Below are positions 1-37,763 of a DNA stretch of 38,945 nt, in pieces. Every line of letters begins with the position of its first letter. Position 1 is the first letter of the stretch. The DNA is taken from IMG/VR virus record IMGVR_UViG_2531839524_000011, one strand, 5' to 3'. The notes under the pieces are model-generated. The model was not told where the DNA came from and made no database searches. It was given only the letters and a program-made list of their open reading frames with translations. A program made the position numbers and the translations under genes. Origin of the DNA: a virus. Its lineage: Duplodnaviria > Heunggongvirae > Uroviricota > Caudoviricetes.

Positions 1-1005
1 TTAATCCCCCGTGGACACTGCGTGGACACTCACGCCACCTTTCAGCGGATTAAGGGCCACCGCATCCTGCAGGTAATCCGGTGCAAAATGTGCATATGCC
101 ATTGTTTGCTGAATGGTTGCGTGGCCAAGAATCTTCTGAAGCGCAATAATGTTTCCTCCGTTCATCACAAAATGGCTGGCGAACGTATGCCGCAGCACAT
201 GTGCAGCCTGGCCTTTTGGTAAATCGGGCTTAACTCTTTTCAGCGCCAAGCAGAATTCCCGGTACTTCACCTCAAACAAGCCGCCTGTTTCTCTGGTTTT
301 GATCGCCTCACAAACTGCCTGCGAAATTGGCACCGTTCTCTTTCGGCCATTTTTGGTTTCAAGAAACGTTACACGGTTATGAACTATCTGTTCACCACGA
401 AGCTTACAAGCTTCACTCCAGCGCGCCCCTGTGCTTAAACACAAAAGCGCAACACGCCAGTAGTCGCCATCCAGTGTATCGAGCAATAGCGCTACTTCCT
501 TCTGGGACAGGAAAGCCATTTCTCGCGGGGATACATAAAGAATGGAGATCCCCCTTACCGGATGTTCTGCATCCCAAAGGCCTATTCTTTTCAGAACAGT
601 AAACATGCCGGATAGTCGGTTCATGTACCTGTTAGCAGATGACGGTTTCAATCCAGCAGCTATCTTTTGAGAACGCCACGCGATAATTTTCAGCTTATCA
701 AGATCCACAGCCTGCATATCAGCGCCAAGCTCATTGATTATGTTGCACAGTTGTTTTCGGTCTTCTTCCGCCTTACGCCTGTGCTGGCCGTGATACATCC
801 ACCACAACTCAAGCAAATCATTTAGCGTTCGACGATCACGGTAGCCCTGTATATATTCCCGCTTTTCAGCGTTCGCCATGATGTAGCGTTCAGTGGCCAC
901 CGCTACCGATTTTTTGTCAAATACCTTACGCACGCGCTTTCCCTTGCGTCCGTTCGGCCTGATGTCCAGCAAATAACGACCATCTTCGAGCTTCTTAATC
1001 GACAT
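1..1005 (-). CDS. int: Phage integrase, tyrosine recombinase (P2 Int-like)
   Basis: 339-aa minus-strand ORF; C-terminal catalytic region HVLRHTFASHF...LGHATIQQTMAYAHF typical of tyrosine recombinases; N-terminus MSIKKLEDGRY; ATG at 1003..1005 preferred over the TTG at 1018..1020; position at prophage left end. Confidence 0.9.
   Translation of the reverse strand: MSIKKLEDGRYLLDIRPNGRKGKRVRKVFDKKSVAVATERYIMANAEKREYIQGYRDRRTLNDLLELWWMYHGQHRRKAEEDRKQLCNIINELGADMQAVDLDKLKIIAWRSQKIAAGLKPSSANRYMNRLSGMFTVLKRIGLWDAEHPVRGISILYVSPREMAFLSQKEVALLLDTLDGDYWRVALLCLSTGARWSEACKLRGEQIVHNRVTFLETKNGRKRTVPISQAVCEAIKTRETGGLFEVKYREFCLALKRVKPDLPKGQAAHVLRHTFASHFVMNGGNIIALQKILGHATIQQTMAYAHFAPDYLQDAVALNPLKGGVSVHAVSTGD
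11..29. repeat. Candidate attL core (direct repeat of 37764..37783), overlapping the int 3' end
   Basis: gtggacactgcgtggacac here versus tgtggtcactgcgtggacat at 37764..37783; shared cactgcgtggaca core. Confidence 0.35.
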
Positions 1006-1101
1006 CGCGAAGCCCTCCAATGAACCGCTCTACAATTTCTCCAGCCTCTTTCCAGCAATAATCAGACCAGACAAAAAGCAGGTCTAACCAGTTTTCTGGC
1101 C

Positions 1102-1422
1102 TCAGCGGGGTAATTTTTGTTTTGTTTCGGTTGAACTCTGATCGCCCTCCAAACTGGAGAAGCCATCAAGAGAGAGAGCCGGAGAAATTTGCCCAACCTC
1201 CGGCATCGTTTCATCTGTTGATAACCAATAAGCATACTTCTTAAATTTTGGGTGTTTCGTAACCTTAAGTAAGGCCCCCTCTGTTACTTGCTTCCCCCTC
1301 ACCTCATAGTTAGTTACCGTCCCATAAGGCAGCCCAACACAATCCGCAAACTCCTGGCGGGTCATACCTTCTGCTTCACGAATCAGGCGAAATTTTTCCC
1401 CCATGCTTGACAAAGATGCCAT
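1102..1422 (-). CDS. C: Immunity repressor, P2 C-type (HTH)
   Basis: Translation ...FADCVGLPYGTVTNYEVRGKQ...KHPKFKKYAYWLSTDETMPEVGQISPALS matches my recollection of P2 C; divergent from cox; start at ATG 1420..1422 (MASLSSMGEKF) preferred over upstream in-frame ATGs. Confidence 0.8.
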   Translation of the reverse strand: MASLSSMGEKFRLIREAEGMTRQEFADCVGLPYGTVTNYEVRGKQVTEGALLKVTKHPKFKKYAYWLSTDETMPEVGQISPALSLDGFSSLEGDQSSTETKQKLPR

Positions 1423-1536
1423 ATCGGGCATATCCTCCATCACAAACATGCCACATCGGGCACATACATAAAAAAGCTCAAATAAGCCTATATAAGCCAT
1501 TTTGAGCCATTCGAACGAATTAAGGAGATTACCACA
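1423..1536. promoter_or_regulatory. Lysis/lysogeny switch region: divergent repressor and early promoters with operators (inferred)
   Basis: Intergenic between divergent C (-) and cox (+); contains short direct repeats (agccatt twice); assignment by position only. Confidence 0.45.
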
Positions 1537-2486: not shown

Positions 2487-2729
2487 ATGGGCAAAGAATA
2501 TAAAACTCTCATTAACAAAGCACTTGAGCGTTTTTATTTTCGCTTAAGCGCATCAGGCACTCATGCTGAACGTGCAGCCCGTGACTCATTGACCAGGGCA
2601 ATCCGGAGTCTGTATGACGTGGCTTTTTACGCTGATGATCTGGATGCACTTAACGAACTTTCTGAGCTTATCTGCGCCGCAGAATGCGGGGAACATATTG
2701 AACCGTATAAGCTGGGGAATATCGCATGA
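2487..2729 (+). CDS. Hypothetical early protein
   Basis: 80-aa ORF tightly packed after the preceding gene. Confidence 0.5.
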   Translation: MGKEYKTLINKALERFYFRLSASGTHAERAARDSLTRAIRSLYDVAFYADDLDALNELSELICAAECGEHIEPYKLGNIA

Positions 2730-2839
2730 GTATATTTATCTCATGGCTTGTTATGATTATTTCGGTGGCCTGCGCCATTGGGATTATGCGAATTATTCAT
2801 TCAGTAAAAAAGATCGAACGTTTTTTCACTGGTGAATAA
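2726..2839 (+). CDS. Possible small hydrophobic membrane peptide (37 aa)
   Basis: ATG at 2726 overlapping the upstream stop (ATGA); MSIFISWLVMIISVACAIGIMRIIHSVKKIERFFTGE has one predicted TM helix; below the ORF-track length cutoff. Confidence 0.3.
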   Translation: MSIFISWLVMIISVACAIGIMRIIHSVKKIERFFTGE

Positions 2840-2931
2840 CCATACAAATAAAACATCAGGTTAAATAAGAAAACGTGAAAACAATCCGCATGCGCGGAGG
2901 TATTCGCACACGTAAATAACGGAGATATAAA

Positions 2932-3342
2932 ATGAATGCAAAAGAAGAAGGTATTATCAGAGCACTGAAAGAAATTTCAAAGATGGAAAGCGAAGTGGCG
3001 AAAAAAGCCGTAGCAAATAATCATATAGACGTCGCTACCCACACAATGATAGTTGCAAAAGTCACGGCAGAAGCCGCCAAAATCATCGAAGAACAGGGTG
3101 CGGAACTTACGCTTTTCAAAACTCAACCAGTCACCGGACTGGATTTATCTAACACCGGACGCCTTATTTACACAATTGGCTCAGAGCCACAGCGATACAC
3201 CATTATCGCCGGATTACAGGACAAATACCTGATCACTCCTTACCCCATAAGGGAATCAGCGCTTCTGACAAATCTCCACCTGATAGAGCGCTCTCAGGTC
3301 GCATTCATTGATGACGCCCAACACACCGTATTTAACGCATAG
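2932..3342 (+). CDS. Hypothetical protein (136 aa) in a lower-GC stretch
   Basis: ORF with upstream aacggagat RBS-like sequence; no recognisable motif. Confidence 0.55.
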   Translation: MNAKEEGIIRALKEISKMESEVAKKAVANNHIDVATHTMIVAKVTAEAAKIIEEQGAELTLFKTQPVTGLDLSNTGRLIYTIGSEPQRYTIIAGLQDKYLITPYPIRESALLTNLHLIERSQVAFIDDAQHTVFNA

Positions 3343-3353
3343 GGTTACTGGAC

Positions 3354-3370
3354 AAAAAAAAGGGGGGGGG
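3354..3370. repeat. Homopolymeric A8-G9 tract immediately upstream of the ATG at 3373
   Basis: aaaaaaaa ggggggggg directly visible at 3354..3370; occupies the RBS/spacer of the following ORF. Confidence 0.9.
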
Positions 3371-3372
3371 CA

Positions 3373-3576
3373 ATGGCAATTAAGCATTTTCCCGTCGTTC
3401 GCTTTACCTCCAGAGGACGTGAATACGAAGTCGACGAACGCCTGATTACCACTATCGACAAACATCGTTCGGAAAAGGATGCACACCACATCTACCTCAC
3501 TGACGGCACTTACTTCTGCGCCACCAACGTGGCGCGAGTAAATCTTATCCGACAGGTACAGGAGCAGCGTAAATGA
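3373..3576 (+). CDS. Hypothetical protein (67 aa)
   Basis: ORF; stop overlaps the next start (ATGA at 3573). Confidence 0.5.
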   Translation: MAIKHFPVVRFTSRGREYEVDERLITTIDKHRSEKDAHHIYLTDGTYFCATNVARVNLIRQVQEQRK

Positions 3577-3791
3577 GCAGAAGGCGAATCACACGCAGGC
3601 ATCGCCGCACACACATGAATTCCTTACCGACGCTGAAAGAACTCATTCAACACGAGATCGCTGATTTCTGCGCAACGCTGGGGTCGCCTGGCGAACCGGA
3701 AACACCAGAAGCGATGCAGCGCGAACTCATGATGCGCATCGATAACGTTTTTGACTTTTTCCTGAATAACAAAAGAGGGCAATCAACATGA
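3573..3791 (+). CDS. Hypothetical protein (72 aa), arginine-rich N-terminus
   Basis: MSRRRITRRHRRTH...; translationally coupled to flanking genes. Confidence 0.5.
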   Translation: MSRRRITRRHRRTHMNSLPTLKELIQHEIADFCATLGSPGEPETPEAMQRELMMRIDNVFDFFLNNKRGQST

Positions 3792-3991
3792 ACAAAAAGA
3801 CTTGGTTTCGCGCATACATGTGGGCGCTGGTATGCGTCCTCATTTCTATCATTCTGTATGCAGGACTACTCCCCCGAATGATTTCATCAGACAGCTCCTT
3901 CCTGGTATTGCTGGGCATTTTCATTGCCATGCTGTACCCGGCAGGCGTTGTTCGCCTTTTCAGTAAGTACATCAAGGAAATCAAACAATGA
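3788..3991 (+). CDS. Small two-TM membrane protein (possible NfeD-like partner of the SPFH protein)
   Basis: 67 aa with two hydrophobic helices (WALVCVLISIILYAGLL and FLVLLGIFIAMLYPAGVV); 4-bp overlap with the downstream SPFH gene. Confidence 0.55.
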   Translation: MNKKTWFRAYMWALVCVLISIILYAGLLPRMISSDSSFLVLLGIFIAMLYPAGVVRLFSKYIKEIKQ

Positions 3992-4818
3992 AGAAATTCA
4001 GACTCTTTCAGATTATCCCGCTTTTTGCCGCCATCCTGCTGGTTGGTTGCGATCGCGTTGAGCCAGGTAATGTGGGCATCAAAGTCAACAAACTGGGCGA
4101 CGACAAAGGCGTCGGTGAAGTGGTTGGCGTTGGCCGCTACTGGACAGGCTGGAATACAGAGGTTTACATCTTCCCGACCTTCAAACAAATGAAGACCTAC
4201 GATGAGCCGTTCAGCTTCCAGATGAGCGACGGCACAACCATCGGCTATCACATCGGTGTGACCTACAAGGTTGATCCATCCAAAGTTACCACAGTGTTTC
4301 AGACCTACCGCAAAGGCGTGGATGACATTACCGACACTGACCTGCGCCAGAAGATCGCCGATGCACTCAACCGACTGGCCAGCAAAATGACCACCGATAA
4401 GTTTATCGACGGTGGTAAGTCTGAACTGCTGGATTCAGCACTTAAAGATATTCAGGAAGAGATGACCCCCATCGGCATTCAGGTCATGAGCCTCTCTTAT
4501 GTCGGTAAACCGGAATATCCGCCAACCGTTATCGACAGCATTAACGCCAAAGTCACGGCAAACCAGAAAACCCTGCAACGTGAACAGGAAGTCAAGCAAC
4601 GCGAAGCTGAAGCCAACATGCTGCGCGCAGAAGCTGCCGGACAGGCCGATGCCATTCGCACAAAAGCCCAGGCTGAAGCCGACGCCATTCGTTTACGCGG
4701 CGAAGCTCTGCGCCAGAATCCCGGCGTTATGGAGCTGGAAGCGATCAACAAATGGAACGGCACGCTGCCGCAATACATGACCAGTAACACCGCTGTTCCG
4801 TTCGTTCCCGTGAAGTAA
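3988..4818 (+). CDS. SPFH/band-7 (stomatin-prohibitin-flotillin-HflK/C-like) lipoprotein
   Basis: 276 aa; lipobox LLVGC after the signal peptide; band-7-like core and a C-terminal coiled-coil alanine/glutamate-rich segment (QREAEANMLRAEAAGQADAIRTKAQAEADAIRLRGEAL) typical of HflC/K-like proteins. Confidence 0.75.
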   Translation: MKKFRLFQIIPLFAAILLVGCDRVEPGNVGIKVNKLGDDKGVGEVVGVGRYWTGWNTEVYIFPTFKQMKTYDEPFSFQMSDGTTIGYHIGVTYKVDPSKVTTVFQTYRKGVDDITDTDLRQKIADALNRLASKMTTDKFIDGGKSELLDSALKDIQEEMTPIGIQVMSLSYVGKPEYPPTVIDSINAKVTANQKTLQREQEVKQREAEANMLRAEAAGQADAIRTKAQAEADAIRLRGEALRQNPGVMELEAINKWNGTLPQYMTSNTAVPFVPVK

Positions 4819-4824
4819 TTAAAT

Positions 4825-4849
4825 CCGGCCAGTGAAAACCGCTGGCCGG
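4825..4849 (+). terminator. Stem-loop after the SPFH gene (weak intrinsic terminator candidate)
   Basis: ccggccag-tgaaaaccg-ctggccgg hairpin; the T-run is displaced about 15 nt downstream. Confidence 0.4.
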
Positions 4850-5185
4850 AGCAGTATCAGGATTTTTTAGTATGCCGTTCTCACAAAAAAACCGCTTGCC
4901 ATGCCGCAATCAGTCAGGTTACATTTCCGCTGCACCTCACAAAACGGGTGCCGGGTTTCGCAGCCTGCTGACTACACAAGCGCACAACCGCGCCAGCGGT
5001 TTTTTTGTGCGTACTGTATTGCCACGTTTTTTTCGCGTCAGAATTATGGCGGGGCGTACGGGGCCGACTTCGGTCGGGCCGGGTTCTTGTGTAGCCGGGA
5101 CTGCGAACCTCGTACGTCTCGCCACCCACAGTTTCGCAGCTCTGGATGGTGAGTTTTCACAACTTACTACACAAGGGGCCACACC
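4850..5185. other. GC-rich structured non-coding interval (candidate sRNA / regulatory or replication-associated element)
   Basis: No convincing ORF with an RBS; nested hairpins including gggccgac-ttcg-gtcgggcc enclosed by gcgtacg...cgtacgt (5054..5117); terminator-like ccgcgccagcggttttttt at about 4989..5007; direct repeat actacacaag at 4970 and 5166. Confidence 0.3.
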
Positions 5186-5416
5186 ATGGCAAACCGCAAA
5201 CCACACCGCGCTATCGCGGAGCGTCGTCACATCCAGACTGAAATCAACCGCAGACTTTCCCGCGCATCACGCGTCGCGCAAATCATGCACATCAATATGT
5301 TGCATGAGCGCAGCCACGCACTATCAAACATTTATTCCGCCTCTGTTTTCAGCTATCTGGCGGATGATCTGCACGAGCTTCAACAGCTCATCCAGCAGCA
5401 AAACAAACTCCATTAA
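5186..5416 (+). CDS. Hypothetical protein (76 aa)
   Basis: ORF preceded by aagggg RBS-like sequence 7 nt upstream of the ATG. Confidence 0.45.
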   Translation: MANRKPHRAIAERRHIQTEINRRLSRASRVAQIMHINMLHERSHALSNIYSASVFSYLADDLHELQQLIQQQNKLH

Positions 5417-5488
5417 TTCCTGTTCCGGGCCTTTCCTGCACCTTGCGGCGGGAGGCCTTCGCACATCTGTAACAAGAGGATTGCCGCA

Positions 5489-5854
5489 ATGATTCTCGCC
5501 AACGACTTTCTTGAATACCTGCTCAACACAGAACGTGATCTTGCCGCCCGCGTGCGTGATCGTTATGACATGTACCTGAAATCCCTGCCTGTACCGCAGC
5601 TCGCTGACGGAAAGATTGTTATTGATGGTCGCTACATGATTGACAGCCACGAGGGAAATTACAGGCTTTACCGCATTGAAGGTGGCACCCCGTCCGTTAT
5701 TGGCATTTACCAGCGCCCATCCTCTGCAATCGTCGATGTGATTGCCGACAGCATCCGCATCACACATCGCCATGCCGACACAGAAGACACCGTGCTGGAA
5801 ATTCAGCGGCTGGCTACAGTCTGCCGCGACACCCTGAATGGCATGACGAAGTAA
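5489..5854 (+). CDS. Hypothetical protein (121 aa)
   Basis: ORF immediately upstream of gene A. Confidence 0.55.
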   Translation: MILANDFLEYLLNTERDLAARVRDRYDMYLKSLPVPQLADGKIVIDGRYMIDSHEGNYRLYRIEGGTPSVIGIYQRPSSAIVDVIADSIRITHRHADTEDTVLEIQRLATVCRDTLNGMTK

Positions 5855-5860: not shown

Positions 5861-8683
5861 ATGACGGCAGAGTACATCAGGGACTGGCAACAACCGCGCC
5901 ACGCAGTGGGGCGTGAAGGAACGGGGATCCCCACTCCTGAATCCGCGCTTTCCTCCTGGCTGGATGCCTACCGGGCAGAGAACGAGCGCCGCCAGGAAAT
6001 GGCTGATGCGGCGTTCTCCGCCACGCCGCTGGGCAACCTGATTAATAAAAGCCTGGACGCACAGGAAAAACAGGACAAAACCATCACACTGGCAGGAGAC
6101 GCCAGAAAGCAGGCACGCGGCGCGGTGGATGAAGCCATGGCCTCGCTGCGCCTGCTGCCGTCCTATCTGCGCGATCCGCTTATTCGCCACCTCTCCTTCC
6201 TGCGCAAAAAACAGGAATCTGACCGCCAGAAAGGTAAAAAGAACCAGCAGGCTGAACGCTACGCGCGCGGGACCCTGCGCAAAATATTCGAACGTCTGGA
6301 CCGCACCGACCACCGCTGGCTGACACCGGGTTATCGCGCCCTTGCCGGACGCGAACGCCTGGATGATTTGCTTTACCTCCCGCAGCTCAACAAGCACCAG
6401 ATACAGACGCTGGCCACCATGACGGCGGCGATGTTCAGCAGCACCTTCGAAAAACTCTGCGATGGCTTTGGCGCAACCGATGGCGAGCTGACCATGGATG
6501 TAACCCTGAAGGCGTATCAGATGCTGGCCCGCATGGCGTTACACCTGCACGCCATGCCTCCACATTATGACGCACTGACAACAGACAAAGACCGGAGGAA
6601 CGAACCGGACACGGAGCTGCTGCCGGGCGCAATCCTTCGCCTGACCTGTGCGGAATGGTGGAAACGCAAACTGTGGCTGTTACGTTGCGAGTGGAGAGAA
6701 GAACAACTCCGCGCCGCCTGTCTGGTTTCCAGAAAAACATCGCCCTATCTGAGCCAGGACGCGTTAAGCGAGTTTCGCGCACAGCGCGAGAAGACACGCG
6801 ATTTCCTGAAAAGTTTCATGCTGGAAAACGAAGACGGGTTCACGATTGATCTCGAGACAGTGTATTACGCGGGAGTAAGTAACCCGGTTCACCGTAAGGC
6901 AGAAATGATGGCCACCATGAAGGGACTGGAACTTCTGGCCGAAGCCCGTGGCGACAGAGCGGTGTTTCTGACTGTCACCTGCCCGTCAAAATACCACGCC
7001 ACAACAGAGAACGGTCATCCGAATCCCAAATGGAACGGGGCCACCATGCGCGACTCCAGCGATTACCTGGTTAACACGTTTTTTGCGGCTGTCCGCAAAA
7101 AACTGAACCGCGACGGTCTGCGCTGGTATGGCATCCGCACGGTGGAGCCTCACCATGACGGCACCGTGCACTGGCATATGATGGTCTTTGCTCATCCGGA
7201 AGAAATCGACACCATTGTGTCCCACACCCGCGATATTGCCATTCAGGAAGACCGCCACGAGCTGGGCGATGACATAACTCCGCGCTTTAAGGCGGAGTAC
7301 GTCGACGGCTCAAAAGGCACACCAACCAGCTACATCGCCACCTACATCGGAAAGAACCTGGACAGCCACGCCGTGGATGGCATCGACCCGAAAACGGGCA
7401 AGCCACGCGTTGACCACGAAACCGGAAAATCAATGGCCGAGAGCGTGGAGCGCGCCATCGGCTGGGCACGCCTTCACCGGGTCCGCCAGTTCCAGTTCTT
7501 TGGCATTCCCTCCCGTCAGGTGTGGCGTGAACTCCGCCGCCTTGCCAGCCAGATAGCACGCAACCCGGAAGGCCCGCAACGGCTGAAGGATGATGCAATG
7601 GATGCGGTACTCGCTGCCGCTGATGCCGGATGTTTTGCCACCTACATTGAAAAACAGGGCGGCGTACTTGTTCCACGCAAGGACTACCTGATTCGCACCG
7701 CCTACGACCTCGCCGATGAGCTGAACGATTACGGCGAACAGAGCGTACAGATTTACGGGATCTGGTCACCACTCATCGGGGAATCCTCCCGTGTGTGCAC
7801 GCATCCGGATAACTGGAAGCTGGTAAGACGCAAACCGGAAGCGAAAGACAGCGCCCGCGAAAATGGTTTTGACCTTCAGGGCGGCCCTGCCGCCCCTTGG
7901 ACTCGTGGCAATAACTGTCCCCGTGTACAGGAAACGGACAACAACGGGACAGAACAGCCGGAAGAACGGCCAGCACCGTGGCCGCAGCTTCCTGACGGCG
8001 TTGACGTGAATGAATGGATGCGCTCACTGAAACGGCACGAACGCCGGGCGCTGATGCGTTCGCTGCGTGACAAACAGGCAAAAAACAGCAGTGATGAGAT
8101 GCAGAGCTGGACACAGAGCCGCAAACAGCCGCGGCCTTTGCCTGATAACCACGAATTACTCGCTAAAGAATGGCGGGAGTCTGCTGAATCTCTCGGCCTG
8201 CATATCGGTGAACAGCAAATGCAGCACCTGTTACGGGGCGGCAGTCTGTACGTTGACGGCAGCATCATTGCACCGCAGGGATTTGAAATTGTACGCAAAC
8301 CGGATACCCGCCCGGACAGCCGAATCACGCAGCTCTGGCTGCGCCTGAGCCGTAATCACGGCGTAAGCAGCACGGAGATCCGCCATAACCCGGTCGCCAG
8401 TTATCTGGAACAGCTAGGGGCATCAGCCCCCGAAGCCGCCGCACGCCTGGCATCCACACTTCAGCAAGACCAGAACACCATGAAAACACCCGTTACCGTG
8501 CTTTCTGACATGCTGCGCGCCATCCGCGACGCAGAGCACGCGCAGAGAATCAGTGAAACTGCTGAACGCGCCCGCCGCAAAGCAGACCTGCTGCGGGGTG
8601 GCCTGACCAGCGGAAACAAAAAACAGACAGAAACGGGATTCACAAATCCCGTAAATGAGCAAAAAACGCGCCGCGATATATGA
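5861..8683 (+). CDS. A: Rolling-circle replication initiator (P2 gpA-like HUH endonuclease)
   Basis: 940 aa; HUH motif in GTVHWHMMVFAHPEE and paired catalytic tyrosines in TPTSYIATYIGKN, as in P2 A / phiX174 A-type initiators; position after the early genes. Confidence 0.9.
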   Translation: MTAEYIRDWQQPRHAVGREGTGIPTPESALSSWLDAYRAENERRQEMADAAFSATPLGNLINKSLDAQEKQDKTITLAGDARKQARGAVDEAMASLRLLPSYLRDPLIRHLSFLRKKQESDRQKGKKNQQAERYARGTLRKIFERLDRTDHRWLTPGYRALAGRERLDDLLYLPQLNKHQIQTLATMTAAMFSSTFEKLCDGFGATDGELTMDVTLKAYQMLARMALHLHAMPPHYDALTTDKDRRNEPDTELLPGAILRLTCAEWWKRKLWLLRCEWREEQLRAACLVSRKTSPYLSQDALSEFRAQREKTRDFLKSFMLENEDGFTIDLETVYYAGVSNPVHRKAEMMATMKGLELLAEARGDRAVFLTVTCPSKYHATTENGHPNPKWNGATMRDSSDYLVNTFFAAVRKKLNRDGLRWYGIRTVEPHHDGTVHWHMMVFAHPEEIDTIVSHTRDIAIQEDRHELGDDITPRFKAEYVDGSKGTPTSYIATYIGKNLDSHAVDGIDPKTGKPRVDHETGKSMAESVERAIGWARLHRVRQFQFFGIPSRQVWRELRRLASQIARNPEGPQRLKDDAMDAVLAAADAGCFATYIEKQGGVLVPRKDYLIRTAYDLADELNDYGEQSVQIYGIWSPLIGESSRVCTHPDNWKLVRRKPEAKDSARENGFDLQGGPAAPWTRGNNCPRVQETDNNGTEQPEERPAPWPQLPDGVDVNEWMRSLKRHERRALMRSLRDKQAKNSSDEMQSWTQSRKQPRPLPDNHELLAKEWRESAESLGLHIGEQQMQHLLRGGSLYVDGSIIAPQGFEIVRKPDTRPDSRITQLWLRLSRNHGVSSTEIRHNPVASYLEQLGASAPEAAARLASTLQQDQNTMKTPVTVLSDMLRAIRDAEHAQRISETAERARRKADLLRGGLTSGNKKQTETGFTNPVNEQKTRRDI

Positions 8684-8759: not shown

Positions 8760-9719
8760 ATGAAAATTTGTATCGACGACGGCTCCACCAACATCAAGCT
8801 GGCATGGACTGAGAACGGCGAACGCCGCAACGCCATCAGCCCGAACAGCTTCAAGTCGGAATGGTCTGCGCCGTTCGGCGGCACGCAGCCCGCGAACTAC
8901 ATGCTTGATGGCGTGCGCTATGGTTTTGATCCGGTCAGCGATCGCTTTGTCCAGACGACCGACACGCAATACCAGTACAGCGATGTGAATGTCATTGCCA
9001 TTCATCACGCGCTGGTCAAATCAGGCATCACGCCACAGGAGGTGGATGTGGTTGTCACCCTGCCACTGAGCGAGTATTTCGACACAAACGCACAGCCGGA
9101 CATGGCCAACATCAACCGCAAAAAAGCGAACGTTATGCGCCCGGTGGAGTACCAGAACGGCGAAGCATTCACTATCCGTAACGTGCGGGTTATGCCTGAA
9201 TCCATTCCGGCTGGCTTTAAGGCACTGGCTGACATGAGTCCGTTTGAATCCCTGCTGATTGTGGATTTGGGCGGAACCACGCTGGATGTGGCAAAGGTTC
9301 AGGGGCAACTGGCAGGTATCAGCCAGGTGTTTTGCGATCCACACGTAGGCGTTTCCCTGATGGCCGATGCCGTACTGTCGGTGATGGCCACTAACGGTAT
9401 GCGTACCAGTCACCACATCGCCAATACCATTATCGAACATCGCCATGATGAAGCCTGGCTGCGCCAGCACATCCACAATGACGCGCATTACGCCAGCCTG
9501 ATGGCGGTTATTCGTGAAAAGGAAGAAACACTGAAACAACGCGTGATCCGCGCGCTGGCGGTTTTTTCGGGTTACGGGCGGGTGATGGTTGTCGGTGGCG
9601 GGGCGGAGATTGTGGCACCCGCTATCCGCGAAGCCTGCGGAGTTAATGCGACTTTCATCGCGGATGGGGTGCCACAGTTTGCTCTGGTTAATGGGCTGTA
9701 CGCAATGGACAAGGAGTAA
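8760..9719 (+). CDS. parM: ParM/StbA-like actin-family partition ATPase
   Basis: 319 aa; MKICIDDGSTNIKLAW, YSDVNVIAIHHAL, MPESIPAG, LIVDLGGTTLD and VMVVGGGAE match the plasmid R1 ParM (StbA) signature blocks as I recall them. Confidence 0.85.
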   Translation: MKICIDDGSTNIKLAWTENGERRNAISPNSFKSEWSAPFGGTQPANYMLDGVRYGFDPVSDRFVQTTDTQYQYSDVNVIAIHHALVKSGITPQEVDVVVTLPLSEYFDTNAQPDMANINRKKANVMRPVEYQNGEAFTIRNVRVMPESIPAGFKALADMSPFESLLIVDLGGTTLDVAKVQGQLAGISQVFCDPHVGVSLMADAVLSVMATNGMRTSHHIANTIIEHRHDEAWLRQHIHNDAHYASLMAVIREKEETLKQRVIRALAVFSGYGRVMVVGGGAEIVAPAIREACGVNATFIADGVPQFALVNGLYAMDKE

Positions 9720-10164: not shown

Positions 10165-10689
10165 TTATGAAAAATAATCATCATGAGAGGAAACATGCAA
10201 ATTATAATCACTCAATTGGGGAATAATCCCCCTACTCCAAAGCAACGTTTTATTTAGTCCAAGTCCATCTAATTTCATCATCCTGTTGCGCAGCGCAATG
10301 AACTCATTCTTGAAGTTATCTGCAGAGATGATTTTTGGGCAAAAACAAGAATACAATTTTCTGTTACTTACGCCACAAGCATTGGCAAGCTCATCCTCAA
10401 AATTGCTTGTTTGTTGAAATAGGTGGATTGTGTGTTTTTTCGCCTTTAATAGATTTAGGTTATTCTTAAATCTACCAAGATTCTCAATCCTATCCGTATC
10501 AAAAACCACTATAATTTCGCTATTTTCGGTTAATGCTGGCATGTATTTATTTATATTAACATTCCATAAATTAGCAATTACTATTTTCTTAATAGGATAG
10601 CCTAGCAATGTTTTGAAATCCTGAAACAATGCTTTTTCCGTATCTCCCTCAACGAGAATGATAGCAAATTTCTTAACTGCCATAATCAA
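10165..10689 (-). CDS. TOPRIM-domain protein (OLD-family C-terminal-half-like / AriB-like), 174 aa
   Basis: N-terminal ILVEGDTEK conserved glutamate followed by IIVVFDTD (DxD), the TOPRIM metal-binding signature; start overlaps the ATPase stop (ATGA); very AT-rich. Confidence 0.6.
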   Translation of the reverse strand: MIMAVKKFAIILVEGDTEKALFQDFKTLLGYPIKKIVIANLWNVNINKYMPALTENSEIIVVFDTDRIENLGRFKNNLNLLKAKKHTIHLFQQTSNFEDELANACGVSNRKLYSCFCPKIISADNFKNEFIALRNRMMKLDGLGLNKTLLWSRGIIPQLSDYNLHVSSHDDYFS

Positions 10690-11885
10690 TCCTCAAATAG
10701 CATCTCTTCGATTAATGAAACGTCAGGTATTGTTGCAAAACAGTCATTTTTTACTTTATTTAAAAGATTGCGATCATTCTTTTTATGATGTGTGGTAGCT
10801 TCAACAAAAGTGGTTAAACCATCTACTTTTTTAGTAAAAGTATATGAATGCGTAGGCAGATCTAAGCTCAAGATATCATAATTATGTGTGGTGTATATAA
10901 ATTGACCATACCTGCAAAGCTTAGATATAATCAGTGTGACCATCATTTTTTCTAATTCAGTATGAGTGAAGGCCATTTTCTCATCCAAAAAGTACACCCC
11001 ACTGCAAGGGAAATTGAACTCACGCTCTTCTATTTTATCTTCAAGCACTCCTGACAGGAGATGGGATATTTTTACTGCCTCATAAGTACCACGAGACAGT
11101 CTATCTTTATTTGTTATATCACCTTCCATATCAATAATAACTCTATCTCCATTATTGAAGACTACTGAATACCCCTGCAAATCCTCCTTTCCCTCATCAT
11201 CTTTAAGAGTGAGTCCTGAGACAGATTTAACAGTATTGTCAAAAGTTTTTAATATGCTATTAAGCACATTCTTCTTAATTCGGGATATTTTATCCGTGTT
11301 CTCTTGGTTTTCAGATAGAATGAAATGCCAACCAAGAACAAAGTCCAAATCCTCTAAATATTGGGAAAATTCTTTTGAGTTAGCGTTTTCAGTTGAAAAA
11401 AATCTATTTTGACCATTTAATTCAAACTTTTGCGCATCCCACACAGCATCCAATCTTTTGGTCGTCTTTGCGCATGATTCCGAGCTTCTTAAATCAACAG
11501 ATGCCATTGCAATTTTTTCTACAACAACAGACTCATCCATAGCCCTAAGCCAGAAACCTGCCCTAAACAAACATTTTAAATGACTCTGGAAAAAGTCAAC
11601 CTCTATATATGCAGGTTTTCTTTTGTCAGTAATTTTTAACGGTTCTGGATTAAAAACACCACTACTGAGAAAACGCAACACAGAAAGCATCACGCGACCA
11701 AGAGATGTTTTACCAGATGCATTAGCACCAGAAACGATGCAAACCTTTTTGAAGTAGAATTTTTCAAATCCATCAATGTACTCACCTTCCAGTGAGCTGT
11801 TGACCGGGGGTCTGGAGAAGCTTAAGTCAAGGATGCTATTTTCAAAGCAAAAAAGATTATCGATTCTGATTTTTGTAAAAGCCAT
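10686..11885 (-). CDS. ABC/SMC-type ATPase (OLD-family N-terminal-half-like / AriA-like), 399 aa
   Basis: Walker A GANASGKTS; ABC-signature-like LSRGTYEAV; Walker B VYFLDE; H-loop IYTTHN; AT-rich island located in the P2 tin/old slot between A/par and portal Q. Confidence 0.75.
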   Translation of the reverse strand: MAFTKIRIDNLFCFENSILDLSFSRPPVNSSLEGEYIDGFEKFYFKKVCIVSGANASGKTSLGRVMLSVLRFLSSGVFNPEPLKITDKRKPAYIEVDFFQSHLKCLFRAGFWLRAMDESVVVEKIAMASVDLRSSESCAKTTKRLDAVWDAQKFELNGQNRFFSTENANSKEFSQYLEDLDFVLGWHFILSENQENTDKISRIKKNVLNSILKTFDNTVKSVSGLTLKDDEGKEDLQGYSVVFNNGDRVIIDMEGDITNKDRLSRGTYEAVKISHLLSGVLEDKIEEREFNFPCSGVYFLDEKMAFTHTELEKMMVTLIISKLCRYGQFIYTTHNYDILSLDLPTHSYTFTKKVDGLTTFVEATTHHKKNDRNLLNKVKNDCFATIPDVSLIEEMLFED

Positions 11886-27148: not shown

Positions 27149-28093
27149 TTAAATACTCCCCGCGTTATACCACGTTCCATTAATGCAATACTGAACTGGC
27201 CTTGCCTGTGTTGTATCAATTAATTCATCACGGTTTCCGTTAACTGAACCCGTAACGACATAACCTGACCTGTCAGACCAGCCGGGACCATTCCATGTCT
27301 GAACAGATGACAGACCGCCCAGACGAATACCTGTAATAAACTTTGAGTTACATTCCGCTTTGGTATATGCACCAACATCCCCCGCAGAGGGCTTGTAGGT
27401 TGTGGTGTAAAACGCTGACCAGTTATCTTCAAAGCCATAACCATCACGCGCTGAACGATAAAGGATACCGCCGTTCCTGTAATTCACACGGAACTGTACG
27501 GCAGGGCAACTCCCCGTATTCATATTGAAGTGGAGTATTAATGCTGTTGCGCCTTTGATATCTGCATCATAAACACCGCTATTCCAGTTCCAGCCAACAG
27601 CTTTATCATTTGCAACCCTGCTTCCTGTCTGCCCTAAAGCAAATGCAGGCTGCTGGTTTTTCGTGTTGTAGTCTCGTCGCCAGCCAGGAGCATAAGCATC
27701 ACCATGATTAATATAGGTGAATTGAGCGTTAGTAATTCCGCCGCCGCTGGACGTGCTCGGCGTGGTAACGCGTATGGTCATTGCGCCGCGAGTGCCAATA
27801 ACTTCCACCACAGCACCTGCAAGACAAATATTTCCGCAACCTGTATCTGTAATGACCTTATTATTTGCATAAGCCCATGAGCCTTTGCACATCCAGTAAG
27901 GATGGTTAAATGCCCCCTGACTCTCCAGCCACGAAATGAATTGTGCGGTTGTCCAGGCCTGACTATCGCCACCAATATTCAGCCATGCGCTATATGCGCG
28001 GCAGGCACCAATATTTTTGGTGAAGGTATCTTTTCCCGGAATATCTGCGCCGTTCTGTTTTTTCTGTAATGCGCCAGAAGCCTGATTTACCGT
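27149..28093 (-). CDS. Alternative tail fibre C-terminal segment (H'), has no start of its own; fuses to H after inversion
   Basis: The minus-strand frame is open from the right gix site (reads [15 protein letters not shown], identical to H at the left site) through ...WMCKGSWAYANN... to the stop at 27149. Confidence 0.7.
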   Translation of the reverse strand, partial: TVNQASGALQKKQNGADIPGKDTFTKNIGACRAYSAWLNIGGDSQAWTTAQFISWLESQGAFNHPYWMCKGSWAYANNKVITDTGCGNICLAGAVVEVIGTRGAMTIRVTTPSTSSGGGITNAQFTYINHGDAYAPGWRRDYNTKNQQPAFALGQTGSRVANDKAVGWNWNSGVYDADIKGATALILHFNMNTGSCPAVQFRVNYRNGGILYRSARDGYGFEDNWSAFYTTTYKPSAGDVGAYTKAECNSKFITGIRLGGLSSVQTWNGPGWSDRSGYVVTGSVNGNRDELIDTTQARPVQYCINGTWYNAGSI

Positions 28094-28119
28094 TTCCTGT
28101 AAACCGAGGTTTTAGATAA
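28094..28119. other. gix/cix/hix-type 26-bp inversion crossover site (right)
   Basis: ttcctgtaaaccgaggttttagataa, reverse complement ttatctaaaacctcggtttacaggaa, the classic Gin/Hin/Cin crossover consensus. Confidence 0.75.
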
Positions 28120-28173
28120 TGGCCGTTTCTGGCCTGCATGGCATGATTTGCGCTTTTGGACGGGAGATTCAGT

Positions 28174-36274: not shown

Positions 36275-36451
36275 GGAAACCGCGACGGGGGAGTAATCCC
36301 CCGTCAATCAGTTGCCAGGATAAGGTCGATAAGGCATCCTGTCTCACTCTATACCAGCTAATCAATTGACACATATCAATAAAAAGCCTGATAAAATCAA
36401 AATGTTTTGTTACAAATGTCAGCTAGTAGAGGGCCAAAGGAGGCAGATTAT

Positions 36452-36784: not shown

Positions 36785-36788
36785 CAAA

Positions 36789-37682: not shown

Positions 37683-37712
37683 TATAAATCATGCGGCTAA
37701 GCCACAATCACA

Positions 37713-37750: not shown

Positions 37751-37763
37751 TATAACTCGAAAA

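What the first reader, a model, noticed from the sequence alone, without database searches (positions are those of the whole stretch)
3573..4818. SPFH/band-7 lipoprotein with small membrane partner embedded in the phage early operon
A 276-aa lipoprotein (lipobox LVGC) with an SPFH core and Ala/Glu-rich coiled-coil tail is preceded, with 4-bp overlaps, by a 67-aa two-TM protein and a 72-aa Arg-rich protein. SPFH proteins usually pair with NfeD-like membrane partners, and here a minimal membrane partner is present. This is not part of the canonical P2 early region (cox to A is about 4 kb here, much longer than I recall for P2), so it is accessory cargo, potentially a membrane-level exclusion or host-modulation module expressed from the lysogen or early after induction.
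Basis: partly seen in the sequence, partly recalled or inferred. Interest (0 to 1): 0.5.

Follow-up and report, generated by a model that had tools for sequence, protein, structure and literature searches.

The report
Mobile phage SPFH lipoprotein–membrane partner pair
This P2-like prophage carries an optional two-gene cassette, a small two-helix membrane protein plus a lipid-anchored SPFH (prohibitin/HflK-like) scaffold protein, that is shared by many unrelated phages, sits in early lytic operons, and still has no demonstrated function.

Summary
Three + strand ORFs (3573-3791, 3788-3991, 3988-4818) overlap by ATGA. The 276-aa product has a lipobox (LVGC, Cys21, Asp at +2), a Band_7/SPFH domain (Pfam E 3.5e-31) and a long Ala/Glu-rich helix. 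The 67-aa product is a two-TM hairpin.

- The real unit is two genes, not three: partner (phrog_1130) plus SPFH lipoprotein (phrog_200).
- The pair recurs in P2-like, lambdoid/Stx, P1-like and SSU5-like temperate phages and in virulent phages such as N4 (gp19-gp20).
- The 72-aa ORF is a rearranged backbone ead/Ea22-like gene.
- The partner is not NfeD.

The pair is accessory. Window 3767-4881 is a clean 1.1-kb presence/absence polymorphism against close relatives, and only 24 of 69 closely related contigs carry it. In every context it lies inside a repressor-controlled early operon, so lytic-phase expression is more likely than expression from the lysogen.

The fold matches full-length cage-forming SPFH proteins (HflK/C, prohibitin, erlin). 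Most likely it builds a lipid-anchored SPFH cage on the periplasmic face of the inner membrane. What that cage does is untested; exclusion, FtsH modulation and membrane stabilisation are all open.

The genes are already catalogued (98.9% identical to P88 gp12). Interest is moderate to low.

The parts
3788..3991 (+). Partner gene: 67-aa two-TM hairpin protein, predicted N-in/C-in, with a short periplasmic loop LLPRMISSDSS. Member of phrog_1130.
   Evidence: ORF. Hydropathy and charge distribution. phrog_1130 E 1.8e-22, matched by 9 of 10 sampled partners. Alignment shows invariant Pro29 and near-invariant Ser33, Val40, Gly43. Abuts the SPFH start in 162 of 169 evaluable loci as scored.
3988..4818 (+). 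SPFH/Band-7 lipoprotein, 276 aa. Member of phrog_200 and 98.9% identical to phage P88 gp12.
   Evidence: Pfam PF01145 E 3.5e-31. phrog_200 E 1.9e-112. tblastn to P88 98.9%. AF2 model mean pLDDT 74. Foldseek matches to HflK/C, erlin, prohibitin, stomatin, flotillin and QmcA at E 1e-13 to 1e-7.
3988..4050 (+). Signal peptide plus lipobox (MKKFRLFQIIPLFAAILLVGC). Cys21 would be the lipidated first residue of the mature protein, followed by Asp22-Arg23.
   Evidence: Sequence. A lipobox is present in all 13 homologues examined. DNA similarity to Stx, P1-like and SSU5-like phages begins at window 4044-4048, at the Cys21 codon.
4054..4614 (+). SPFH domain (residues 23-209). It starts only about 2 residues after the lipidated Cys.
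   Evidence: Pfam envelope 23-209. AF2 strands 20-95 and 164-176 and helices 97-162, with pLDDT 83-94 over residues 61-180.
4522..4716 (+). Long Ala/Glu-rich helix (residues 179-243), equivalent to the CC1(/CC2) cage-wall helices of SPFH complexes.
   Evidence: AF2 H179-243. Aligns to the HflK 181-306 and prohibitin coiled-coil regions.
4723..4815 (+). Conserved C-terminal tail (residues 246-276; INKWNGTLPQYM...VPFVPVK), the candidate cage-cap element.
   Evidence: K255, W256, N257, G258, L260, P261, M264, P271, F272 and K276 are invariant among enterobacterial homologues. K, W, G and P are invariant across the divergent set. AF2 confidence is low here for the monomer. The cap role is inferred by analogy with SPFH C-terminal regions (PMC12624060).
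4824..4850 (+). Stable 11-bp hairpin 6 nt after the SPFH stop codon. It is not followed directly by a U-run, so it may be an mRNA 3' stabiliser or a weak terminator.
   Evidence: RNA fold gives centroid -22.3 kcal/mol and z -2.9. The exact sequence recurs downstream of the SPFH gene in 24 P88-like loci.
3767..4881 (+). The cargo segment itself: a 1,115-bp presence/absence polymorphism holding the last 8 codons of the ead-like gene, the partner, SPFH and the hairpin.
   Evidence: blastn boundaries against P884B11, PhiR44_2 and Shae_phiSM. Junction sequences. The distance from ead to A is 2091 bp with the module, 1004 bp empty and 1568 bp with the alternative gene.
3573..3791 (+). Adjacent backbone gene, NOT part of the module: a 72-aa N-terminally rearranged ead/Ea22-like protein (phrog_4144). 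Its last codons and stop were remodelled by the insertion.
   Evidence: Alignment to the 99-104-aa homologues of P88, P884B11, PhiR44_2 and Shae_phiSM. Residues 27-65 are conserved, while the N-terminal ~45 aa are replaced by 14 Arg-rich residues. Only the C-terminal part is conserved in many P88-like loci (about 10 keep all 72 residues), and the gene is absent elsewhere.

Best explanation
Window 3767-4881 is a horizontally mobile, accessory two-gene cassette: a small membrane protein (phrog_1130) plus an SPFH lipoprotein (phrog_200).

Shown:
- The two genes are translationally coupled (ATGA overlap).
- They are almost always adjacent.
- They occupy cargo slots in early operons of unrelated temperate and virulent phages.
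- The mature SPFH protein has the full domain series of cage-forming SPFH proteins: SPFH domain, long coiled-coil helix and conserved C-terminal tail.

Inferred mechanism:
1. After prophage induction or infection, the early (Pe) transcript yields both proteins in fixed proportion.
2. The SPFH protein is exported, lipid-modified at Cys21 and probably retained in the inner membrane (Asp at +2).
3. Because the SPFH domain starts about 2 residues after the lipid anchor, it lies flat on the periplasmic face of the membrane.
4. There it oligomerises laterally into a closed ring or cage, like HflK/C, prohibitin and erlin. A published CC1-length regression suggests very roughly 20 subunits.
5. The two-TM hairpin, with its conserved periplasmic loop, supplies the transmembrane element that the lipoprotein lacks. 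It sits at the rim of, or inside, the fenced membrane patch.

Favoured physiological output (low confidence): insulating the infected cell's inner membrane during lytic growth. This could mean blocking entry of superinfecting phage DNA or pore-forming agents, or protecting membrane integrity. A replication or lysogenic-conversion role is less likely.
For: SPFH identity and architecture:
- Pfam Band_7 E 3.5e-31.
- AF2 model with SPFH core pLDDT 83-94 and helix 179-243.
- Foldseek full-length matches to HflK/C (E 1e-13), erlin1/2, prohibitin, stomatin, flotillin and QmcA-YbbJ.
- Sequence-level best PDB hits are HflK, prohibitin, QmcA and HflC.
- The highest-ranked fold hits (HflK/C, erlin, prohibitin) are the SPFH proteins whose domains face away from the cytoplasm, matching the lipoprotein topology (PMC12624060, PMC2636767).

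Lipoprotein:
- Lipobox in all 13 homologues examined; Asp at +2 in the enterobacterial temperate clade and in Burkholderia.

Partner linkage:
- Partner ORF abuts the SPFH start in 162 of 169 evaluable loci as scored, 113 of them with a 4-bp overlap. Three of the remaining seven are ORF-start artefacts that do have the partner.
- Seen in P88, N4 gp19-20, phiP27, RCS47, Cyrano, Gekk3-15, Paxi, Burkholderia vB_E253 and Klebsiella prophages.
- The partner is one family with a conserved loop motif.

Accessory and mobile:
-.

Early-operon placement:
- P2-like Pe operon, with no sigma70-like site on the + strand between 2540 and 4896.
- P1-like C1-controlled ban operon, replacing the TerB-like tciABC.
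- Lambdoid: between the cI-like repressor and int on the same strand.
- SSU5-like: after pol III alpha, gp32, exonuclease and RecA.
- N4 gp19-20 sit among RNAP, nuclease and nucleotide-metabolism genes, beside gp18, which is annotated as superinfection-exclusion-related.

Subunit number: CC1-length regression y = 0.178x + 10.2 (PMC12624060).
Against: - There are no experimental data for this family. [quoted passage not shown]
- Oligomerisation, localisation and partner contact are all inferred.
- The AF2 model is a monomer built on a shallow alignment (16 sequences at 75-92% identity to the window protein; mean pLDDT 74; C-terminus below 50).
- Inner-membrane retention is uncertain. Arg at +3 may weaken the Asp+2 signal (from my own knowledge of Lol sorting rules). 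The +2 residue is not conserved across the wider family: Y, E, R, S and N also occur.
- Partner sequences are only 21-43% identical where the mature SPFH is 75-93% identical. This argues against an extensive sequence-specific interface.
- Two sampled phages (Ab22, Omen) lack a recognisable two-TM partner.
- No hit to any PADLOC defence model at E<=0.01 for SPFH, and only a sub-threshold hit for the partner.
- The exclusion or protection role rests only on gene location and analogy.
Confidence: 0.4

Rival explanations
1. FtsH hijack. The phage cage mimics or competes with host HflK/C on the periplasmic face of the inner membrane. It would alter FtsH proteolysis of substrates such as phage regulators, LpxC, sigma32 or SecY to favour phage development or bias the lysis-lysogeny decision.
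For: - The closest sequence relatives among solved structures and curated families are HflK and HflC.
- The top fold hit is HflK/C.
- HflK/C, prohibitin and erlin all partner with membrane-protein degradation machines (PMC2636767, PMC12624060).
- HflK/C faces the periplasm, like this lipoprotein.
- One GenBank annotator reached the same guess for Aeromonas phage Gekk3-15.
- HflK R185, an FtsH-contact residue, aligns to a conserved Arg/Lys at position 120.
Against: - Scores are far below the HflK and HflC equivalog cut-offs: 24-25 bits against 134-159.
- The family is equally distant from prohibitin and QmcA.
- The HflK region holding the R141/E142 contacts is not alignable, and R185 sits at a generically conserved SPFH position.
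- There is no N-terminal TM helix and no K/C paralogue pair.
- Strictly virulent phages carry the pair, so a lysogeny-decision role cannot be general.
Confidence: 0.2
2. Membrane-integrity or lysis-timing device. The cage stabilises the energised inner membrane of the infected cell. That would prevent premature holin triggering or counter membrane-depolarising abortive-infection effectors, and so increase burst size.
For: - Presence in many virulent phages of Gram-negative hosts, with distant homologues in Gram-positive and archaeal viruses, points to a function centred on the cytoplasmic membrane.
- Bacterial SPFH proteins are linked to envelope-stress tolerance (PMC10434171 abstract; YqfA and toxic-peptide resistance in PMC2636767).
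- Early expression fits a need that lasts through the whole latent period.
Against: - There is no linkage to the lysis cassette in any context examined.
- The partner has no holin or antiholin family hit above threshold.
- The idea is purely analogical.
Confidence: 0.2
3. Lysogenic-conversion or virulence lipoprotein. The protein is expressed from the prophage and acts on the animal host or on bacterial surface properties, for example as a TLR2 agonist released in outer-membrane vesicles.
For: - A prophage-encoded HflK/C-like protein of Pasteurella multocida (PM0222) was reported in OMVs, activates TLR1/2 and contributes to virulence (PMC9872710).
- PHROG places the partner in the category 'moron, auxiliary metabolic gene and host takeover'.
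- The gene is common in Stx phages and pathogenic E. coli.
Against: - Homology of PM0222 to this protein was not verified.
- The pair lies inside repressor-controlled early operons, without a promoter or terminator bracket of its own.
- Virulent phages that never form lysogens carry it.
Confidence: 0.07
4. Canonical SPFH-NfeD pair, as the first reader proposed by analogy. The small protein would be a minimal NfeD that regulates or anchors the SPFH oligomer in the same way as YbbJ-QmcA.
For: - Co-directional, overlapping gene pair with the small membrane protein upstream, as in many SPFH-NfeD operons (PMC2636767).
- QmcA-YbbJ is among the fold hits.
Against: - None of 10 partners hits any NfeD model at E<=1.
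- At 67 aa with two TM helices there is no room for the NfeD OB-fold domain.
- The SPFH domains of QmcA and YqiK face the cytoplasm, whereas this one is exported (PMC2636767).
Confidence: 0.03
5. Core early-operon gene with a replication or regulatory role in P2-like phages.
For: It is embedded between cox and A and translationally coupled to its neighbours.
Against: - Absent from close relatives with >=95% identical A genes: 45 of 69 evaluable contigs lack it. Named relatives P884B11, PhiR44_2 and Shae_phiSM lack it.
- It is an exported lipoprotein.
- The same pair occurs in phages with unrelated replication systems.
Confidence: 0.02

Closest known systems
Escherichia phage P88 gp11-gp12 (NC_026014; Xuanwuvirus, Peduoviridae) and PHROG families 1130 and 200
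   Same: Essentially the same genes. The SPFH protein is 98.9% and the partner 96% identical, with the same position between the ead/Ea22-like gene and the isrK/C4 region upstream of A.
   Different: The window's upstream gene is a 72-aa rearranged ead-like ORF, and the wHTH gene (P88 gp09) is missing. Neither record carries any functional information; the annotations read 'lipoprotein', 'serine protease' and 'putative SPFH domain protein'.
Phage N4 gp19-gp20 (Schitoviridae)
   Same: Same two-gene arrangement with overlapping genes. The SPFH lipoprotein is 62-63% identical, and the partner is a two-TM hairpin with the same loop motif.
   Different: N4 is a virulent podovirus. The +2 residue after Cys is Tyr, not Asp. 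The partner is only 26-28% identical. No function is reported.
E. coli HflK/HflC-FtsH complex
   Same: Periplasm-facing SPFH domain, long coiled-coil wall helix, cage-type fold (Foldseek E 1e-13), and the best PDB sequence hit.
   Different: HflK and HflC are two paralogues, each with an N-terminal TM helix. Here there is one lipid-anchored protein plus a separate TM hairpin. Scores lie far below the HflK/HflC family cut-offs, and FtsH binding is untested.
Prohibitin (PHB1/2) and erlin1/2 cages
   Same: Same domain order with the SPFH domains on the non-cytoplasmic face. Prohibitin 1 aligns over nearly the whole length, residues 21-231.
   Different: These are eukaryotic organellar heteromers anchored by TM helices. 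Identity is only about 15-17%.
SPFH-NfeD operons (QmcA-YbbJ, YqiK-YqiJ, FloT-YuaF)
   Same: An SPFH scaffold gene paired with an adjacent small membrane-protein gene (PMC2636767).
   Different: The partner lacks the NfeD OB-fold and any NfeD sequence signal. The SPFH domain is exported rather than cytoplasmic.
Early-expressed phage envelope exclusion proteins (T5 Llp lipoprotein, T4 Imm/Sp, P22 SieA)
   Same: Small membrane or lipoprotein products made early in infection. Accessory character. N4 gp19-20 lie next to gp18, which is annotated as superinfection-exclusion-related (PMC9586334 and PMC10883804 for Llp and SieA).
   Different: No sequence or fold relationship. Those proteins are small and target specific receptors or injection steps, whereas this is a large oligomeric scaffold type. 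Exclusion activity is untested.

Membership tests
SPFH / Band 7 superfamily (PF01145) | Significant match to the Band_7 profile above the curated threshold | tested here: met
   109.1 bits against a cut-off of 23.6, E 3.5e-31, residues 23-209, covering profile positions 2-176 of 176.
SPFH / Band 7 superfamily (PF01145) | SPFH alpha/beta fold followed by a long coiled-coil helix and a C-terminal region, as in cage-forming members | tested here: met
   AF2 secondary structure and pLDDT. Foldseek full-length matches to HflK/C, erlin, prohibitin, stomatin and flotillin, all at probability 1.00.
SPFH / Band 7 superfamily (PF01145) | Assembly into a large membrane-attached ring or cage | not testable with these tools
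   Only monomer prediction was available. This needs multimer modelling, native PAGE or cryo-EM.
Bacterial lipoprotein | Signal peptide with basic n-region and hydrophobic h-region ending in a lipobox [LVI][ASTVI][GAS]C | tested here: met
   MKKFR-LFQIIPLFAAILLVGC, with a single hydrophobic segment at residues 3-24. A lipobox is found in all 13 homologues examined.
Bacterial lipoprotein | Inner-membrane retention (Lol avoidance, Asp at +2) and actual lipidation | tested here: inconclusive
   Asp22 is present and more than 90% conserved in enterobacterial homologues. However, +3 is Arg, and the +2 residue varies (Y, E, R, S, N) in more distant phages. Localisation needs fractionation.
HflK / HflC (FtsH modulators) | Score above the NCBIfam equivalog cut-offs for HflK or HflC | tested here: not met
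   TIGR01932 hflC 24.9 bits against 134.4. TIGR01933 hflK 23.6 against 159.4. NF008181 20.8 against 660.
HflK / HflC (FtsH modulators) | N-terminal transmembrane helix and a pair of K/C paralogues | tested here: not met
   There is a single SPFH gene with a cleavable lipoprotein signal. The adjacent gene is a 67-aa hairpin, not an SPFH paralogue.
HflK / HflC (FtsH modulators) | Conservation of HflK residues that contact the FtsH periplasmic domain (R141, E142, R185; PMC13220708) | tested here: inconclusive
   Only HflK 181-306 aligns. R185 aligns to R120 (Arg or Lys in the family), but this position is generically conserved in SPFH proteins. The R141/E142 region is not alignable.
SPFH-NfeD operon | Partner carries the NfeD C-terminal OB-fold domain, or an NfeD profile match | tested here: not met
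   None of 10 partner sequences hits an NfeD model at E<=1. The partner is 67 aa, almost entirely two TM helices.
SPFH-NfeD operon | Adjacent, co-directional small membrane-protein gene conserved with the SPFH gene | tested here: met
   162 of 169 evaluable loci as scored, most often with a 4-bp overlap. The partners form a single family, phrog_1130.
Known anti-phage defence or exclusion systems (PADLOC-DB) | Match to a model of a known or candidate defence protein | tested here: not met
   No hit for the SPFH protein. There is only a sub-threshold hit (E 0.0078, 14 bits) for the partner.
Holin / pinholin (two-TM class II) for the 67-aa protein | Match to a holin family, or location in the lysis cassette | tested here: not met
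   Only isolated sub-threshold holin hits (E 0.04-0.06) in single members. The gene is in the early region, not the lysis cassette.
Core P2-like (Xuanwuvirus) early operon | Present in all close relatives | tested here: not met
   24 of 69 contigs with a >=95% identical A gene carry it, and 21 show a precise empty slot. It is absent from P884B11, PhiR44_2 and Shae_phiSM.
ead/Ea22-like protein (for the 72-aa ORF) | Full-length similarity to the 99-104-aa ead/Ea22-like proteins of related phages | tested here: inconclusive
   The C-terminal ~40 residues are conserved (HEIxDFCATLxxPGEPETPEAMQ..RIDNVFDFFLN). The N-terminal ~45 residues are replaced by 14 Arg-rich residues. It matches positions 34-99 of 99 in phrog_4144.

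The most novel reading that the evidence does not exclude
The pair may be a generalist 'membrane-fencing' takeover device. A phage-made, lipid-anchored SPFH nanocage on the periplasmic face of the inner membrane, working with a minimal TM hairpin, would wall off membrane patches early in infection. Possible outcomes are a block on entry of competing phage DNA or colicins, or capture of FtsH. That would make it a new mechanistic class of envelope-level exclusion or host control, shared by temperate and virulent phages of many families. The mature cage protein appears to be exchanged among phages as a unit, with a mosaic boundary exactly at the lipobox Cys, while the anchor-side parts (signal peptide and hairpin) are freely swapped.
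Probability: 0.2. Interest if true: 0.65.

Novelty: new member of a known kind. Interest (0 to 1): 0.35.

Why it matters
SPFH proteins are universal membrane scaffolds whose bacterial functions remain poorly defined. This phage version is abundant: it is found in 715 of 5,426 complete E. coli genomes, in 771 phage records, and in Stx phages, phage-plasmids and therapeutic-type virulent phages. Yet I found no functional study of it.

The analysis makes the question easy to test. It defines the true unit as two genes. It identifies a natural scarless 'empty' allele (3767-4881) for isogenic comparisons. It predicts early lytic expression and a periplasm-facing topology. It lists a small set of discriminating assays.

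If the pair proves to be an exclusion or FtsH-control device, it would bear on phage competition, on prophage biology in pathogenic E. coli, and on how SPFH cages select their clients. If it only marginally improves phage fitness, it is an ordinary accessory gene.

Tried and rejected
- Literature: six full-text searches for SPFH/band 7/HflK with phage, prophage, N4, gp19/gp20 or superinfection exclusion. They found no functional study, only genome-paper remarks. One search failed on a two-letter term.
- PADLOC gave no defence-family hit for the module.
- NfeD hypothesis for the partner: rejected.
- Holin hypothesis for the partner: rejected.
I re-ran without it.
- Natural fusion as evidence of interaction: P0001 (347 aa) is an in-frame partner-SPFH fusion, but it comes from one contig with 8 member sequences. 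It is most simply a frameshift or assembly variant of the 20-nt overlapping RCS47-type arrangement, so I did not use it as evidence. I ran no further search on it because the tool returns no coordinates or contact information.
- FtsH-contact residue test: inconclusive because SPFH1 of HflK is not alignable.
- Junction repeats: no long direct repeats at the cargo boundaries and no distinctive GC content (module 0.51; flanks 0.46 and 0.57), so no insertion mechanism could be assigned.
- The search for related loci returns only the 80 best matches, which are dominated by near-identical enterobacterial prophages. I therefore sampled distant phages by hand from the annotated collection. The linkage counts are not phylogenetically independent.
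- Not run: the genome contigs and metagenome scans and the 1.84-billion-protein search. I judged them unlikely to change the verdict.
Full report
**1. Observation**

The window is a P2-like prophage of the P88 type (Xuanwuvirus). Its left end carries:
- integrase, 1-1020 (-)
- C-type repressor, 1102-1500 (-)
- cox, 1537-1824 (Pfam Phage_Cox E 1e-22)
- a run of small early genes
- the A replication endonuclease, 5861-8683 (Phage_GPA E 7e-131)
- ParM, 8760-9719

Inside the early region are three + strand ORFs at exactly the reported coordinates: 3573-3791 (72 aa), 3788-3991 (67 aa) and 3988-4818 (276 aa). Each start overlaps the previous stop as ATGA. Shine-Dalgarno-like motifs precede the last two.

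The 276-aa product has one N-terminal hydrophobic segment ending in the lipobox LVGC (Cys21), followed by Asp-Arg. It has a Band_7/SPFH domain (PF01145, 109 bits against a cut-off of 23.6). AlphaFold2 predicts a continuous helix over residues 179-243, and that stretch of sequence is Ala/Glu-rich. The 67-aa product is two hydrophobic helices joined by a short loop, with basic residues at both ends, which predicts an N-in/C-in hairpin. The 72-aa product has an Arg-rich N-terminus and no TM segment.

**2. The real unit is two genes, not three**

Comparison with 80 IMG/VR contigs and with annotated phages shows that the 67-aa gene always travels with the SPFH gene and the 72-aa gene does not.

| Context | SPFH identity | Partner identity | 72-aa gene |
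|---|---|---|---|
| 58 P88-like loci | 96-100% | 70-100%, directly upstream | only the C-terminal part conserved in most (about 10 keep all 72 residues) |
| 23 contigs from other, larger phages | 92-93% | 41-43%, still abutting | absent |
| N4 (gp19-gp20) | 62-63% | 26-28% | absent |

An alignment with the 99-104-aa ead/Ea22-like proteins of P88, P884B11, PhiR44_2 and Shae_phiSM shows what the 72-aa ORF is. It is that backbone gene with its N-terminal ~45 residues replaced by 14 Arg-rich residues. Three of those four phages have no SPFH gene.

Using HMMs of both proteins on all loci fetched, 162 of 169 evaluable SPFH genes scored a partner ORF ending at their start, 113 of them with a 4-bp overlap. 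Three of the seven exceptions were ORF-start artefacts of my script and do have the partner. Only Pseudomonas Ab22, Erwinia Omen and two contigs lack it. The loci are redundant, so these counts show consistency across contexts and are not independent events.

Nine of ten sampled partners fall in one PHROG (phrog_1130). They share an invariant Pro and near-invariant Ser, Val and Gly, giving a motif around the periplasmic loop...[LV]P.[LM][IV]S[SA].[SD]....

**3. Accessory cargo in a defined slot**

- blastn against close relatives places the left boundary at window 3766/3767, 25 nt before the ead-like stop. The right boundary is at 4881/4882, 63 nt after the SPFH stop.
- P884B11 and PhiR44_2 have about 25 bp in place of these 1,115 bp. 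Citrobacter phage Shae_phiSM has a 183-aa HTH-like 'DNA binding protein' there.
- I drew a sample through the neighbouring A protein, so it is independent of SPFH. Of 69 evaluable contigs with a >=95% identical A gene, 24 carry the pair, 7 carry the Shae-type gene and 38 carry neither. Of those 38, 21 show a precise empty slot: the distance from ead to A is 1004 bp, against 2091 bp with the pair.
- In complete E. coli genomes, the P88-type pair is found in 145 genomes and the P88-type A region in about 990.
- A stable 11-bp hairpin (4824-4850, -22 kcal/mol, z -2.9) follows the SPFH stop and travels with the cassette.
- I found no flanking repeats or GC anomaly.

**4. Distribution**

- The SPFH gene is detectable by megablast in 715 of 5,426 complete E. 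coli genomes, with 417 chromosomal and 389 plasmid places. The plasmid places match P1-like and SSU5-like phage-plasmids.
- tblastn finds homologues in 771 phage records.
- Temperate carriers: P88, Stx2 phages and phiP27 (historically mis-named 'serine protease'), P1-like RCS47 and relatives, and SSU5-like Cyrano and CMS-2020a.
- Virulent carriers: N4, Klebsiella and Enterobacter N4-like phages, Vequintavirinae (GAP31), Ounavirinae (Omen), Bruynoghevirus (Ab22), phiCbK and jumbo phages.
- More distant homologues (24-27% identity) occur in Staphylococcus and Enterococcus myoviruses and in haloarchaeal viruses.

**5. Position and likely expression**

In every context examined the pair sits inside an early transcription unit.

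| Phage type | Position of the pair |
|---|---|
| This window (P2-like) | Pe operon between cox and A; no sigma70-like site on the + strand between 2540 and 4896 |
| P1-like | The slot that holds tciA/B/C (TerB-like; annotated as tellurite or colicin resistance, or inhibition of cell division, by homology) in the C1-controlled ban operon of P1 |
| phiP27 and Klebsiella lambdoid prophages | Between the cI-like repressor and xis/int on the same strand, which is the position of a PL-type leftward operon |
| SSU5-like phage-plasmids | After pol III alpha, gp32, exonuclease and RecA |
| N4 | Downstream of the RNAP genes gp15/16, next to gp18, which is annotated as related to P22 gp17 superinfection exclusion |

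Expression early in lytic growth, and not in the repressed lysogen, is therefore the better-supported inference. No transcript data were available.

**6. Structure and topology**

The AF2 model has mean pLDDT 74, with 83-94 over the SPFH core. It shows the SPFH beta-sheet and helices (residues 20-176), one 65-residue helix (179-243), a short helix, and a low-confidence tail.

Foldseek against the PDB returns full-length matches to cage-forming SPFH proteins:
- HflK/C, E 1e-13
- erlin1/2
- prohibitin
- stomatin
- flotillin
- major vault protein
- QmcA-YbbJ

By sequence, the family is about equally distant (E 1e-5 to 1e-6) from HflK, HflC, prohibitin 1 and QmcA. It falls far below the NCBIfam HflK and HflC cut-offs. 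It is therefore a separate SPFH subfamily.

The three highest-ranked structural relatives have their SPFH domains on the non-cytoplasmic face, as an exported lipoprotein must. The SPFH domain begins about 2 residues after the lipidated Cys, so it must lie against the membrane that carries the anchor.

The tail (INKWNGTLPQYM...VPFVPVK) is the most conserved non-core element, out to the Pseudomonas and Burkholderia phages. In known SPFH cages the C-terminal region forms the cap (PMC12624060). The same paper's regression of subunit number on CC1 length gives about 20-22 subunits if the whole 65-residue helix is counted. This is a rough extrapolation.

The Asp at +2 predicts inner-membrane retention in E. 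coli (an established Lol-avoidance rule, from my own knowledge). However, Arg at +3 may weaken it, and the +2 residue is Y, E, R, S or N in other lineages. Localisation remains an inference.

**7. An unexpected evolutionary pattern**

DNA similarity between the window and the Stx, P1-like and SSU5-like versions begins at window 4044-4048. That is the codon of the lipobox Cys (4048-4050).

Upstream of that point, the signal peptide and the partner are only 21-43% identical at the protein level. Downstream, the mature SPFH protein is 75-93% identical. There are two possible explanations:
- The mature-protein segment is exchanged between phages as a unit, so the boundary is a mosaic joint.
- The membrane-embedded parts evolve far faster than the mature protein.

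The size of the discordance (93% against 42% in adjacent, overlapping genes) favours recombination. Either way, any partner-cage contact must tolerate great sequence variation outside the conserved loop.

**8. Mechanism**

What is shown: a translationally coupled, nearly always linked, mobile, accessory gene pair in early operons, and an exported lipoprotein with the full architecture of cage-forming SPFH proteins.

What is inferred:
- lipid anchoring to the periplasmic face of the inner membrane
- lateral assembly into a ring or cage
- the hairpin acting as the transmembrane element, or as a client, of the fenced patch

For the physiological output I favour protection or insulation of the infected cell's inner membrane, meaning exclusion of superinfecting DNA or pore-formers, or preservation of membrane integrity. 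The reasons are:
- virulent phages carry the pair
- it is made early
- it alternates in P1 with a TerB-like stress/colicin-resistance locus
- in N4 it neighbours a gene annotated as exclusion-related

This is analogy, not evidence, and my confidence in the whole explanation is about 0.4.

The main rival is manipulation of FtsH, through HflK/C-like topology and similarity. The only residue-level test available was inconclusive. Lysogenic conversion is less likely given the operon position. One prophage HflK/C-like protein of Pasteurella has been reported as an OMV-associated TLR1/2 agonist (PMC9872710), but I could not verify its homology to this protein. The NfeD and core-replication readings are rejected.

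**9. Novelty and verdict**

The genes are already in the databases. They are 98.9% and 96% identical to P88 gp12 and gp11, they belong to PHROGs 200 and 1130, and RefSeq names the product 'SPFH domain-containing protein'.

No functional study was found. A 2026 phage paper says the reason for its presence in phage genomes 'remains unclear' (PMC13239085).

At the family level, I did not find the following described in the literature:
- the lipid-anchor-plus-hairpin arrangement with a non-NfeD partner
- the cargo-slot behaviour
- the boundary at the lipobox

All of these are properties of a known protein superfamily in a known kind of place. I rate the finding a new member of a known kind, with interest 0.35. 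It is a solid, testable, widespread gene pair of unknown function, not a surprise.

Noticed in passing
window 4896-5416 (+): Directly downstream of the cassette, Rfam finds an isrK Hfq-binding sRNA (4932-5006, 64 bits) and a C4 antisense RNA (5042-5129, 78 bits). A promoter-like site (4896-4925) precedes them, and a 76-aa ORF (5186-5416) follows, annotated 'derepression protein' in P88. This looks like a P1 immI-like or Gifsy-1 isrK-like antirepressor control module inside a P2-like early region. The 76-aa protein varies (64-100% identity) among otherwise near-identical prophages.
   Followed up: partly
window 4872-5492 (+): A 206-aa ORF overlaps the isrK and C4 RNAs and the 76-aa ORF. The equivalent ORF is annotated 'transcriptional regulator' in Xuanwuvirus P884B11 (gp51). 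It has no hit in NCBIfam and is probably a spurious call over an RNA locus.
   Followed up: partly
window 10165-11885 (-): A low-GC island (0.34-0.36) lies between the partition genes and the portal gene. It encodes a 399-aa AAA ATPase (PADLOC AbiLi E 7.6e-28; Pfam AAA_15) and a 174-aa OLD-like TOPRIM protein (AbiLii E 6.5e-5). This is an AbiL-type two-gene defence system, and the island sits where I recall the old/tin cargo hotspot of P2-like phages to be (the hotspot position is from memory and was not checked).
   Followed up: partly
window 27149-28761: A serine invertase (28156-28761 +; Resolvase E 2e-50 plus HTH_7) lies next to an oppositely oriented tail-fibre C-terminal gene (27149-27892 -; gp37_C), in a lower-GC stretch. 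It is probably an invertible tail-fibre host-range switch of the Cin/Gin type.
   Followed up: no
window 36407-38945 (+): A low-GC region (0.36-0.42) near the right end holds a 125-aa zinc-ribbon protein and a 297-aa protein with a T6SS VasI domain (E 1e-24). An ORF running to the window end follows, with a weak sub-threshold GemA hit. It may be further cargo or flanking host DNA.
   Followed up: no
L087 (phage RCS47) 3230-4274 and L095 (phage P1) 10234-10930: In P1-like phage-plasmids the partner-SPFH pair occupies exactly the slot that holds tciA/tciB/tciC in P1, between upl and the tRNA upstream of ban. That position is therefore an exchangeable cargo slot within the C1-controlled ban operon.
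   Followed up: yes
L156 (IMG/VR contig 2529293038_000017) 328-2504: Here the partner-family ORF (328-516) lies about 2 kb upstream of the SPFH gene (2504-3331) instead of abutting it. This suggests an insertion between the two genes, which I did not examine.
   Followed up: no
protein P0001 (347 aa): An in-frame fusion of an RCS47-type partner to the SPFH lipoprotein exists in the protein collection (one contig, 8 member sequences). It is most likely a frameshift in the 20-nt overlap.
   Followed up: partly
window 3373-3662 compared with L001 (P88) 3131-3761: Relative to P88, the window lacks the winged-helix gene (P88 gp09) and the 5' half of the ead/Ea22-like gene. A 99-bp segment encoding the Arg-rich N-terminus stands in their place. 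This allele recurs at 96-99% identity in about 10 IMG/VR contigs, so the region just upstream of the cassette is a second variable spot.
   Followed up: partly
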